Source of the DNA: Escherichia coli
GTDB taxonomy: Bacteria; Pseudomonadota; Gammaproteobacteria; Enterobacterales; Enterobacteriaceae
Assembly: GCF_003334785.1 (NCBI RefSeq)
Contig: NZ_QOWV01000005.1
DNA: 64,000 nucleotides
Strand: one strand, 5' to 3'
Part shown: in pieces, positions 16,351 to 16,456 of the stretch
Numbering within the stretch: the stretch's first letter is position 1
How the letters are laid out: each line of letters starts with the position of its first letter
Position numbers and translations under genes: made by a program
The notes under the pieces: model-generated
The model's database searches: none
What the model was told of the DNA's origin: nothing
What the model saw: only the letters and a program-made list of their open reading frames with translations

Positions 16351-16456
16351 TCCCCTCGCCCCTTTGGGGAGAGGGTTAGGGTGAGGGGAACAGGCCGGCA
16401 CTGGCGCGAATATTTACCCTCACCCCGGCCCTCTCCCTGAAAGGGCGAGGGGGAAA
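16351..16456. repeat. ~105-bp compound inverted repeat built of G-tract/C-tract motifs (GGGGAGAGGG, GGGTGAGGGG and their complements)
   Basis: Left arm 16352-16388 is nearly the reverse complement of right arm 16418-16455. Resembles a chromosomal intergenic palindromic repeat family, but I cannot assign the family name with certainty. Confidence 0.6.

What the first reader, a model, noticed from the sequence alone, without database searches (positions are those of the whole stretch)
16351..16456. Compound G-tract/C-tract inverted repeat downstream of gcvP
About 105 bp built of GGGGAGAGGG / GGGTGAGGGG motifs and their complements, arranged as two inverted arms around a 30-bp spacer, immediately after the gcvP terminator. 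If transcribed it would fold into a long GC-rich hairpin; as DNA it could extrude a cruciform. I cannot place it confidently in a named repeat family.
Basis: seen in the sequence. Interest (0 to 1): 0.35.

Follow-up and report, generated by a model that had tools for sequence, protein, structure and literature searches.

The report
Known BoxC repeat pair; nuclease-cassette ends
The GC-rich inverted repeat after gcvP is a real, already catalogued E. coli "BoxC/PIT/TMECO" repeat pair, and comparison with other genomes shows that such repeat units are the inverted ends of a small, widespread DUF559 nuclease gene cassette, which offers a testable origin for a repeat family unexplained since the 1990s.

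Summary
Window 16353-16388 (+) and 16451-16416 (-) are two 36-nt three-block units (CCCTCNCCC / GGGNGAGGG / GGGNGAGGG) in convergent inverted orientation around a 27-bp spacer. Nothing like this is expected by chance.

The window is E. coli K-12. The two units are TMECO no. 11 (type A) and no. 10 (type B) in Table 1 of Holder et al. 2015, earlier named BoxC and PIT elements. So the element is already known and belongs to a named family.

The repeated unit is larger than reported (about 16319 to at least 16461). It shares flanks and spacer with other K-12 pairs. At fepB-entC the equivalent 186-bp element is a clean presence/absence polymorphism.

I found what appears to be a new link. The right arm is near-identical (44/46 nt) to the 3' end of enterobacterial ycjD (DUF559, Vsr-like nuclease) genes and encodes their LPSPRPSP* tail. 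In 80 metagenomic DUF559 loci chosen through core-domain motifs only, 50 have a unit at one gene end or both, in the convergent orientation, against 0.06 units/kb in far flanks (P about 1e-66 to 1e-75). All three Mitsuaria paralogs are flanked the same way.

Best reading: the window element is a gene-less copy of a selfish DUF559 cassette. Mobilisation by the nuclease is inferred, not shown.

The parts
16295..16318 (+). Context, not part of the element: GC hairpin AAAGGCGC-TTCG-GCGCCTTT followed by a T-run, the probable gcvP intrinsic terminator. The left breakpoint of the ygfF-less allele lies directly after it (16318/16319).
   Evidence: Inverted repeat I11; sequence; breakpoint. The consensus terminator scan did not score it.
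16319..16352 (+). Left outer flank of the repeated element (..GATGACAAAGTACAAAAGTGCTCAGACAGTC). It is shared with other K-12 type A units (consensus: A-rich, then G.GC.C....CGGTC) and corresponds to one half of the head-to-head linker seen downstream of enteric ycjD genes.
   Evidence: Alignment of four K-12 pairs; 23 oriented K-12 units; local alignments.
16353..16388 (+). BoxC/PIT/TMECO unit of type A (TTA loop; 'A mm'): CCCTCGCCC-CTTTG-GGGAGAGGG-TTA-GGGTGAGGG-G. This is TMECO no. 11 (K-12 3,046,087-3,046,052).
   Evidence: Exact consensus match; Holder 2015 Table 1; coordinate mapping window x = 3,062,440 minus the K-12 coordinate.
16389..16415 (+). Inner (tail-to-tail) spacer AACAGGCCGGCACTGGCGCGAATATTT. 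It is conserved in the fepB-entC and alx-sstT pairs. In complete cassettes elsewhere this position is occupied by the DUF559 gene.
16416..16451 (-). BoxC/PIT/TMECO unit of type B (CCG loop; 'B mm'): CCCTCGCCC-TTTCA-GGGAGAGGG-CCG-GGGTGAGGG-T. This is TMECO no. 10 (K-12 3,045,989-3,046,024). Read on the + strand from 16414 it is TTA CCC TCA CCC CGG CCC TCT CCC TGA, which translates to LPSPRPSP*, the C-terminus of enterobacterial YcjD/DUF559 proteins.
   Evidence: 44/46 nt identical to the Kluyvera ycjD 3' end; 43/45 Franconibacter; 41/43 Phytobacter.
16452..16472 (+). Right outer flank (GGAAAAGCGTGCCAACATTGA). The GGAAAAC/G-type sequence is shared by all type B units (as GTTTTCY on the unit's own strand) and follows the 3' unit of enteric ycjD genes. 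The outer limit is approximate.

Best explanation
The element is one of the five known type A + type B BoxC (PIT, TMECO) pairs of E. coli K-12. Each unit has three 9-nt blocks (one C-block and two G-blocks). The two units face each other tail to tail, so the whole stretch is a long imperfect palindrome.

My reading is that BoxC units are the terminal inverted repeats of a small selfish cassette that carries a DUF559 (YcjD-like, Vsr-type PD-(D/E)XK) nuclease gene. In that cassette a unit on the gene's strand sits just upstream of the start codon, and a unit on the opposite strand overlaps or follows the stop codon. The window element is a gene-less, non-autonomous copy, with 27 bp where the gene would be. 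It relates to the cassette as a REPIN relates to a RAYT gene, or a MITE to its parent element.

At this locus it sits as a passenger between the gcvP terminator and the ygfF promoter region, with no demonstrated host function. Its hairpin, cruciform and triplex potential follows from its repeat architecture and explains the small slippage deletions and local variability.

Shown here: identity with the published family; the modular architecture; presence/absence polymorphism; and the strong, orientation-specific association of units with DUF559 genes across distant taxa.

Inferred, not shown: that the DUF559 nuclease recognises or cuts BoxC DNA and thereby spreads units or pairs, whether by a homing-like or a transposition-like process.
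For: Identity: exact consensus matches and the published listing at these coordinates. The element is dispersed at a median of 6-7 places per E. coli genome.

Architecture: four K-12 pairs share flanks and spacer. Type A and type B units each have their own conserved outer flank.

Mobility or indel behaviour: the 186-bp fepB-entC pair is cleanly absent in about half of 5,426 genomes, bounded by a TAA direct repeat.

Gene link:
- E. coli ycjD ends inside a reverse type B hairpin.
- 94 of the 120 best YcjD homologs carry a BoxC-type tail signature, in most of them ..LPSPRPSP.
- The window's right arm is 44/46 identical to the Kluyvera ycjD 3' end.
- Enteric ycjD occupies at least 3 chromosomal sites and always carries the B unit.
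- In 80 metagenome DUF559 loci chosen by core motifs only, 41/77 have a (-) unit just past the gene, 37/77 have a (+) unit just upstream, and 28 have both. The opposite orientations are seen in 10 and 4 loci. Far flanks hold 13 units in 217 kb. P is about 1e-75 and 1e-66.
- 15 complete cassettes are 390-540 bp long, and the ORF enters the 3' unit in different reading frames, so the unit is conserved as DNA and not as a peptide.
- 3/3 Mitsuaria DUF559 paralogs are flanked, in a genome with at least 255 units.
- L192 is a complete cassette with an A-like 5' unit and a B-like 3' unit. This fits the published rule, previously unexplained, that pairs are always A+B.

Nuclease fold: Pfam DUF559 with E = 1.5e-49; PDB 3HRL with E = 1e-27; the same clade holds Vsr and a group I intron homing endonuclease.

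Co-distribution: TMECO is absent from Salmonella, and no Salmonella protein appears among the top 120 YcjD homologs. ycjD is found in E. coli phylogroups A/B1/C, while BoxC-poor strains exist: IHE3034 with one motif and U15A with none by megablast.
Against: - No experiment links YcjD to BoxC DNA.
- Enteric ycjD genes lack a recognisable 5' unit. They have a 70-nt leader instead, so the enteric gene is not itself a complete cassette.
- O157:H7 lacks ycjD at sapF-fabI but still has several BoxC copies, so maintenance does not need the gene.
- About 38% of the sampled DUF559 loci show no unit.
- Only one clean empty site was examined. Its 3-bp TAA repeat could be a target duplication, which would favour a transposase, or just microhomology at a deletion.
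- The phylogroup correlation is confounded by shared ancestry.
- Absence of ycjD from Salmonella was not directly tested.
- My literature search covers only open-access papers, so the link may have been noted elsewhere.
Confidence: 0.6

Rival explanations
1. Structure-forming DNA with no associated gene. Each unit folds into an intrastrand purine-motif triplex (or the pair into a cruciform), which stalls replication or repair and so raises local genome variability, possibly as an adaptive feature. This is the view of Holder et al. 2015.
For: A triplex was shown in vitro by CD and NMR on type A TMECO oligonucleotides whose sequence matches unit A, and BoxC loci are more variable than control loci. 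Here I see slippage deletions inside the blocks, a collapsed pair at alx-sstT, and a replacement breakpoint 33 bp from the pair.
Against: In vivo DMS footprinting gave no sign of a triplex, and the duplex form shows no triplex signal. This view does not explain the orientation-specific flanking of DUF559 genes, the A/B polarity, the conserved linkers, or why near-identical 9-mers recur across phyla. Instability could equally be a consequence of a nuclease or of the repeats themselves.
Confidence: 0.15
2. A classical MITE mobilised in trans by an unidentified transposase, with the DUF559 gene as passenger cargo between the inverted repeats rather than the mobilising enzyme.
For: The element is a long imperfect palindrome under 200 bp, with a clean presence/absence allele and a 3-bp TAA direct repeat at fepB-entC. 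Its outer ends there resemble inverted repeats.
Against: No transposase gene was seen between or next to units in any of the 15 complete cassettes, which are only 390-540 bp and filled by the DUF559 ORF. No target-site duplication was evident around those cassettes. Holder et al. found no association with IS elements, phages or plasmids. My searches found almost none in phages, and in the plasmid collection mostly very large records.
Confidence: 0.15
3. An RNA-level or transcriptional element: a terminator, insulator or 3'-end stabiliser for gcvTHP mRNA (as proposed for REP elements), or a regulator of ygfF.
For: It is positioned right after the gcvP terminator and upstream of ygfF, and the RNA hairpin is very stable (-76.6 kcal/mol).
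Against: There is no T-run after either arm, and the scan found no promoter-like or terminator-like sites. Rfam gives only sub-threshold miRNA-like hairpin noise. Earlier work cited by Holder et al. found no promoter or terminator activity for PIT elements. Copies occur in both orientations at variable distances from genes. About 44% of E. coli genomes lack this copy altogether, together with ygfF.
Confidence: 0.07
4. A chance palindrome in a GC-rich intergenic region.
For: None beyond its small size.
Against: Zero matches in shuffles; fold z-scores of -7.4 and -5.8; thousands of copies across E. coli genomes; a published family.
Confidence: 0

Closest known systems
BoxC (Bachellier et al., 1990s), also called PIT elements (Hoyne, Maher et al. 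2000/2002) and TMECO (Holder et al. 2015, PMC4666352)
   Same: The same element. Both arms match the TMECO consensus exactly and are listed as TMECO no. 10 and no. 11 at K-12 3,045,989-3,046,087. It is intergenic, multi-copy, and an A+B inverted pair.
   Different: Nothing differs for the element itself. What I add is the larger shared unit (flanks and spacer) and the association of units with DUF559 genes, which those papers, as far as I could read them, do not report. Holder et al. explicitly found no functional pattern in the flanking genes.
REPIN / RAYT systems and BIMEs (REP doublets forming hairpins, with REP-associated tyrosine transposases)
   Same: Short GC-rich palindromic units occur as inverted doublets and as decayed singlets. 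The architecture is a mosaic with two unit types and conserved linkers. A small gene is flanked by the same units in inverted orientation, and the genome holds many more gene-less copies than genes.
   Different: The associated gene is a Vsr-like PD-(D/E)XK nuclease (DUF559), not an HUH Y1 transposase. The units have three blocks rather than a simple REP stem-loop. No mobilisation has been shown.
Free-standing homing endonuclease genes of the Vsr-like / EDxHD class (PDB 3R3P is grouped with Vsr and DUF559 in Steczkiewicz et al. 2012)
   Same: A small selfish-looking nuclease gene of the same fold clade, with patchy presence/absence and different chromosomal sites in related genera.
   Different: Homing endonuclease genes are not normally bounded by about 36-nt inverted repeats and do not leave hundreds of gene-less repeat copies. 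Cleavage specificity is unknown here.
MITEs (for example ERIC/IRU in enterobacteria, Correia elements in Neisseria)
   Same: Under 200 bp, non-coding, palindromic, intergenic, with insertion/deletion polymorphism between strains.
   Different: No related DDE transposase element is known. A target duplication was seen at only one locus and is ambiguous.

Membership tests
BoxC / PIT / TMECO | Sequence consensus 5'-CCCTCNCCC N3-6 GGGNGAGGG N3 GGGNGAGGG-3' | tested here: met
   Exact matches at 16353-16387 (+) and 16417-16451 (-), with 0 expected by chance.
BoxC / PIT / TMECO | Listed copy in the E. coli K-12 catalogue | tested here: met
   Table 1 of PMC4666352, nos. 10 and 11. Sequences and coordinates agree after mapping the window to NC_000913.3.
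BoxC / PIT / TMECO | Intergenic, dispersed, multi-copy in E. coli | tested here: met
   It lies between gcvP and ygfF. Median of 6-7 megablast places per genome in 5,426 genomes. 23 copies in K-12 according to the paper.
BoxC / PIT / TMECO | Pairs combine one type A (TTA loop) and one type B (CCG loop) unit on opposite strands | tested here: met
   Unit A on the + strand and unit B on the - strand; the rule is stated.
BoxC / PIT / TMECO | The isolated strand forms an intrastrand triplex in vitro | not testable with these tools
   Published CD and NMR data for type A TMECO oligonucleotides; the control oligonucleotide with its four G-to-C changes reverted is identical to unit A. ViennaRNA cannot model triplexes. 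It predicts only alternative C-block/G-block hairpins.
REPIN / RAYT | Inverted doublet of short palindromic units able to form a long hairpin | tested here: met
REPIN / RAYT | Associated gene is an HUH Y1 (RAYT) transposase flanked by the units | tested here: not met
   The flanked gene is DUF559 / PD-(D/E)XK. So this works like a REPIN system but is not a member of that family.
MITE | Terminal inverted repeats, small size, presence/absence polymorphism | tested here: met
   Arms are 82% complementary. A 186-bp clean indel at fepB-entC.
MITE | Target-site duplication and a cognate transposase-encoding parent element | tested here: inconclusive
   A TAA direct repeat at one locus only. No duplication evident around 15 gene-containing cassettes, and no transposase found.
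Intrinsic terminator | GC-rich stem-loop followed directly by a U-run | tested here: not met
   No T-run after either arm and no sites in the scan. The separate hairpin at 16295-16318 does have a T-run.
Rfam RNA families | Score at or above a family's gathering threshold | tested here: not met
   Best hit 33.5 bits against a threshold of 77.5 (a plant miRNA hairpin model). All hits are generic hairpin matches.
DUF559 (YcjD-like) cassette, proposed here | Unit on the gene strand upstream and unit on the opposite strand at the 3' end of a DUF559 ORF | tested here: not met
   The window element has the two units in the right orientation, but only 27 bp and no ORF between them. It qualifies only as a gene-less derivative. 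Complete cassettes are seen in L148, L055, L056, L058 and 15-28 metagenome loci.

The most novel reading that the evidence does not exclude
BoxC/PIT/TMECO repeats are not free-standing structural DNA. They are the inverted termini of a widespread, phylum-crossing selfish cassette that encodes a Vsr-like DUF559 nuclease (YcjD in E. coli). The nuclease recognises or nicks these three-block repeats and spreads both the gene-containing cassette and far more numerous gene-less pairs and singlets. This would be a PD-(D/E)XK-based analogue of the RAYT/REPIN system. It would also explain the A+B pairing rule, the reported genome instability at BoxC loci, the patchy distribution (abundant in E. coli and Enterobacter, absent from Salmonella), and would give a function to the uncharacterised ycjD gene.
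Probability: 0.5. Interest if true: 0.7.

Novelty: already known. Interest (0 to 1): 0.45.

Why it matters
The element itself is a catalogued repeat, so the first-stage finding adds nothing new on its own. BoxC/PIT/TMECO has, however, lacked an origin or a mechanism since the 1990s. Published work tested promoter, terminator, polymerase-blocking and triplex ideas and ended with an unexplained link to genome instability.

The association found here is strong and orientation-specific, and it was obtained from a sample not selected on the repeat. It ties the units to a small nuclease gene family of unknown function, DUF559/YcjD. That turns the open question into simple experiments: does YcjD bind or cut BoxC DNA, and does its expression mobilise or destabilise BoxC loci?

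If true, it would define a second kind of repeat-plus-enzyme selfish system in bacteria, built on a Vsr-like nuclease rather than an HUH transposase. It would give a function to a conserved E. coli orphan gene, and it would explain strain-to-strain variation at dozens of intergenic sites.

Tried and rejected
- **Rfam scan of the region at a permissive E-value:** only sub-threshold eukaryotic miRNA-type hairpin matches, rejected as generic hairpin noise.
- **Curated K-12 RefSeq annotation:** no repeat feature is annotated in the gcvP-ygfF spacer, so the family had to be identified from the literature.
- **Looking for an empty site at this locus:** genomes without the element also lack ygfF and carry about 120 bp of unrelated DNA plus a different bglA 3' end. 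This is a replacement, not a clean indel. The ycjD-less allele at sapF-fabI is likewise a replacement, by the eef operon.
- **Genome contigs pattern scan for taxonomic distribution:** It shows cross-phylum occurrence but gives no distribution.
- **RAYT-style search for a transposase between inverted units in Mitsuaria:** no HUH transposase was found. The ORF that stood out was DUF559.
- **N-terminal extensions of enteric YcjD homologs as a trace of an upstream A unit:** none are BoxC-derived. Enteric genes have a conserved 70-nt leader instead.
- **Phage and plasmid association:** essentially none in phages, and the plasmid hits are mostly very large records.
- **Terminator/promoter consensus scan around the element:** nothing found.
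- **First alignment of the fepB-entC alleles:** spoiled by my wrong offsets, and redone correctly.
- **Literature searches** for DUF559, ycjD, TMECO and PIT found no paper that links the gene to the repeat.

Full report
**1. The observation**

The sequence at 16351-16456 is as described. The repeat finder gives arms 16352-16390 and 16414-16452, 39 nt each and 82% complementary. The single strand folds into one long hairpin: RNA -76.6 kcal/mol, z = -7.4; DNA -37.5 kcal/mol, z = -5.8.

The element lies between the stop codon of a 957-aa ORF (13399-16272) and a 247-aa ORF that starts at 16539. A separate GC hairpin with a T-run at 16295-16318 looks like the upstream gene's terminator.

**2. Where the window comes from**

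The intergenic region is 100% identical to E. coli K-12. In NC_000913.3 the genes are gcvT, gcvH, gcvP, ygfF and bglA. The window is the reverse strand, and window coordinate x equals 3,062,440 minus the K-12 coordinate.

**3. What the element is called**

A literature search for E. coli intergenic repeats led to Holder et al. 2015 (PMC4666352). That paper treats a motif first described as BoxC in the 1990s and rediscovered as "potential intrastrand triplex" (PIT) elements by Maher's group in 2000. It names the motif TMECO, with consensus CCCTCNCCC N3-6 GGGNGAGGG N3 GGGNGAGGG.

Both arms of the window element match this consensus exactly, at 16353-16387 (+) and 16417-16451 (-), with none expected by chance. 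Table 1 of the paper lists them as TMECO no. 11 (type A mm, 3,046,087-3,046,052) and no. 10 (type B mm, 3,045,989-3,046,024), with identical sequences.

The paper states that K-12 has 23 units, always intergenic. Five loci carry two units in inverted configuration, and these pairs always combine type A (TTA loop) with type B (CCG loop). So the element is real, is far from chance, and is already known and named.

**4. What the literature says about function**

The isolated G-rich strand forms a stable triplex in vitro. The duplex does not, and in vivo DMS footprinting showed no triplex. Earlier work found no promoter or terminator activity. BoxC loci are more variable among E. coli strains than control loci, by an unknown mechanism, and no pattern was found in the flanking genes. 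The motif was reported 3,610 times in 262 proteobacterial genomes. It is abundant in Enterobacter and E. coli and absent from Salmonella.

**5. Anatomy beyond the published units**

I fetched the other K-12 copies. Four convergent pairs (gcvP-ygfF, hrpB-mrcB, fepB-entC, alx-sstT) share more than the two units:
- They share about 30 nt to the left of unit A. Three of the four (all but hrpB-mrcB) also share the 27-nt spacer.
- They share about 10 nt or more to the right of unit B.

Across the oriented K-12 units, every type A unit has a left flank ending ..GC.C....CGGTC, and every type B unit has a left flank GTTTTCY. Head-to-head arrangements with their own linker also occur. The family is therefore a mosaic of two unit types plus conserved linkers, reminiscent of BIMEs and REPINs. 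In the window the shared sequence runs from about 16319 to at least 16461.

**6. Population variation**

- **At this locus:** 3,026 of 5,426 E. coli genomes have the K-12 arrangement. The other roughly 2,400 lack the pair, ygfF and the K-12 bglA 3' end together, and carry about 120 bp of unrelated DNA. The left breakpoint is at 16318/16319, the left edge of the shared element.
- **Where the pair is present:** variation is limited to a 6-bp slippage deletion, a 1-bp change in a G-run, and a substitution in the C-block.
- **At fepB-entC:** a 186-bp segment containing the pair and its flanks is precisely absent in about half of the genomes, bounded by a TAA direct repeat. Its outer ends resemble inverted repeats.
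- **At alx-sstT:** a common allele is a collapsed pair, with a 75-bp deletion between GGGAGAGGG blocks.

**7. The lead to a gene**

It still showed the same three-block motif in a Methylomirabilota MAG, Candidatus Contendobacter and Mitsuaria chitosanitabida, which has at least 150 strict and 255 relaxed units in 0.9 Mb sampled.

I tested a REPIN-style idea by looking for genes between inverted units in Mitsuaria. I found a 139-aa ORF with one unit 25 nt before its ATG and a reverse unit overlapping its 3' end, and a 78%-identical paralog with the same layout. The protein is DUF559 (PF04480, NCBIfam PRK09767).

One K-12 BoxC unit lies just downstream of ycjD, an E. coli gene annotated as DUF559. 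The ycjD coding sequence ends ..TCA CCC TCT CCC TGA AAGAGCGAGGGGG, which is inside a reverse type B hairpin.

**8. The link in enterobacteria**

Of the 120 best YcjD homologs, 94 carry a BoxC-type signature in their C-terminal tail, in most of them ..LPSPRPSP. Window 16414-16440 reads TTA CCC TCA CCC CGG CCC TCT CCC TGA, which translates to LPSPRPSP-stop.

At the DNA level the window's right arm plus flank matches ycjD 3' ends as follows:

| ycjD 3' end compared | Identity to the window's right arm |
|---|---|
| Kluyvera | 44/46 |
| Franconibacter | 43/45 |
| Phytobacter | 41/43 |
| Metagenomic cassette L192 | 37/39 |

The gene occupies at least three different chromosomal sites: sapF/fabI in Escherichia; yggW/yggN in Enterobacter, Phytobacter and Franconibacter; and an SBP gene/Dyp peroxidase in Klebsiella and Kluyvera. 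At each site it has the same 70-nt leader and the reverse B unit at its 3' end. At most sites a type A unit follows head to head.

In E. coli, ycjD is itself polymorphic. It is present in 3,375 of 5,426 genomes. A 2026 paper reports it in phylogroups A, B1 and C in place of the eefRABCD operon, without mentioning the repeat.

**9. An unbiased test**

I trimmed the BoxC-encoded tails off 14 diverse DUF559 sequences and aligned the cores. I used that alignment to fetch 80 metagenome loci. The search patterns were two core motifs, [IV]E[LA]DGGQH and KFRRQ[HQW]P[VIA]G.

With a strict three-block pattern:
- 23/79 loci have a reverse unit starting mostly 14-47 nt past the end of the core match.
- 24/77 have a forward unit within 200 nt upstream.
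- Flanks more than 600 nt from the gene hold 5 units in 217 kb.

Allowing up to 3 substitutions:
- The figures rise to 41/77 and 37/77.
- 50/80 loci have at least one unit in the expected place, and 28/80 have both.
- The opposite orientations are seen in 10 and 4 loci.
- Far flanks hold 13 units.
- Binomial P is about 1e-75 and 1e-66.

Fifteen complete cassettes are 390-540 bp long and almost filled by the ORF. The ORF enters the 3' unit in different reading frames or stops just before it, so the unit is conserved as DNA and not as a peptide. L148 shows the inverted repeat extending a further 7 nt into the flanks. L192 has an A-like 5' unit and a B-like 3' unit. This matches the E. coli A+B pair and accounts for the published A+B rule. 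With the relaxed pattern, all three Mitsuaria paralogs are flanked in the convergent orientation.

**10. Interpretation**

BoxC units behave as the terminal inverted repeats of a small DUF559 gene cassette. The window element has the two ends in the right orientation with 27 bp in place of the gene, so it is a gene-less copy.

DUF559/YcjD proteins have the Vsr-like PD-(D/E)XK fold. PDB 3HRL matches at E = 1e-27. The family is grouped with Vsr and with a group I intron homing endonuclease in the 2012 survey, and YcjD was noted as Vsr-like in 2005. The core alignment keeps the D, E.DG.QH and related positions invariant.

The most economical mechanism is that the nuclease acts on these repeats and so promotes their copying, as RAYTs do for REPINs or homing endonucleases do for their genes. 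That step is inference.

The points against it are these:
- Enteric genes lack a 5' unit.
- Strains without ycjD, such as O157:H7, retain BoxC copies.
- About 38% of sampled genes show no unit.
- Only one clean empty site was examined, and it has an ambiguous 3-bp repeat.
- The co-distribution evidence is confounded by ancestry or untested. This covers the absence from Salmonella, the phylogroup A/B1/C pattern of ycjD, and BoxC-poor strains such as IHE3034.

**11. Rivals**

- **Pure structural-DNA (triplex) view:** it explains instability, but not the gene association, the unit polarity or the conserved linkers, and it lacks in vivo support.
- **MITE moved by an unknown transposase, with DUF559 as cargo:** this remains possible, but no transposase was seen.
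- **RNA or terminator role:** this is unsupported (and the earlier work cited).
- **Chance:** excluded.

**12. Novelty and verdict**

The feature handed to me is already known and named. As a finding it is ordinary. The DUF559 link did not appear in any paper I could search. There were 25 papers with "DUF559" and 17 with "ycjD", and among the hits for "TMECO" and "intrastrand triplex" only Holder et al. concerns this repeat. The library covers only open-access literature, so I cannot exclude prior notice.

I therefore rate the element "already known". I give a moderate overall interest because the follow-up makes a long-standing question directly testable, and I state the stronger claim separately as the novel case.

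Noticed in passing
window 13300-13350 (gcvH-gcvP intergenic): A degenerate BoxC-like hairpin inside the gcvTHP operon: CGGGAGAGGATCAGGGTGAGGAAAATTTATGCCTCACCCTCACTCTCTTCG. It may be a decayed relative of the same family.
   Followed up: partly
window 16319 to about 17346: The BoxC pair, ygfF and the last few codons of bglA form one block of about 1 kb. In roughly 2,400 of 5,426 E. coli genomes it is replaced by about 120 bp of unrelated DNA that contains a REP-like hairpin. In those genomes gcvP is followed directly by bglA.
   Followed up: yes
L141 (K-12 1,350,900-1,352,600), between ycjD and the downstream type A unit: The last 40 nt or so of the ycjD coding sequence (GGAGACGGTGCTGGAGAATATTC..CTGAACCG) are duplicated about 60 nt downstream of the stop codon, followed by degenerate block fragments. 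Some database proteins are read-through or frameshift variants ending in ..GPLAPLGRGLG, which is a translation of the type A unit.
   Followed up: partly
L145 1860-2100 (Klebsiella quasipneumoniae, downstream of the ycjD homolog): Two or three tandem copies of a module of about 80 nt (a CCCTCTCCC..GAGAGGG hairpin plus the linker AGAAAGAGAGTCC.CACGCAGATTCCATAACCGCACCGAACGGTT) lie between the reverse B unit and the type A unit. The linker resembles the head-to-head linker at E. coli lldD-trmL.
   Followed up: no
L233 1839-1890 (Enterobacteriaceae bacterium BIT-l23): Directly after the stop codon of a tail-less ycjD homolog lies a perfectly symmetric collapsed pair: CCCCACCC CGG CCCTCTCC TTTT GGGAGAGGG CCG GGGTGGGGG. 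This illustrates the 'palindrome effect' reported by Holder et al.
   Followed up: no
L234 / L235 (E. coli A42 and O157:H7, upstream of fabI): Genomes without ycjD have a TetR-family gene next to fabI. By the description in the 2026 EefABC paper this is probably eefR of the eefRABCD efflux operon. ST69 and ST182 are reported there to have a ycjD that is 12 nt longer at its 3' end. That fits the ..SPSPQPSP tails seen, meaning a complete rather than truncated B unit.
   Followed up: partly
L238 (E. coli ATCC 11303, alx-sstT intergenic): In this allele the BoxC pair is replaced by about 290 bp of different, very GC-rich DNA (..GGGGGCGGCCAATCGCCGCCGCCCCC..), which I did not identify.
   Followed up: no
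Phage records MG065686.1 and MG065691.1 (Campylobacter phages A18a and A11a); plasmid NZ_CP074792.1: Unexpected 86% matches over about 65 nt to the left half of the element in two Campylobacter phage records, with 3 places in each. A single unit also occurs on a 155-kb E. coli plasmid. I did not examine these, and contamination or chimeric assembly is possible.
   Followed up: no
L020-L126 (Mitsuaria chitosanitabida): Very high unit density: 255 relaxed units in 912 kb sampled. Almost all have the same GCTTGC loop, and most lie in divergent (-,+) pairs 30-270 nt apart, unlike the convergent pairs with spacers of about 27-31 nt in E. coli and the Methylomirabilota MAG.
   Followed up: partly
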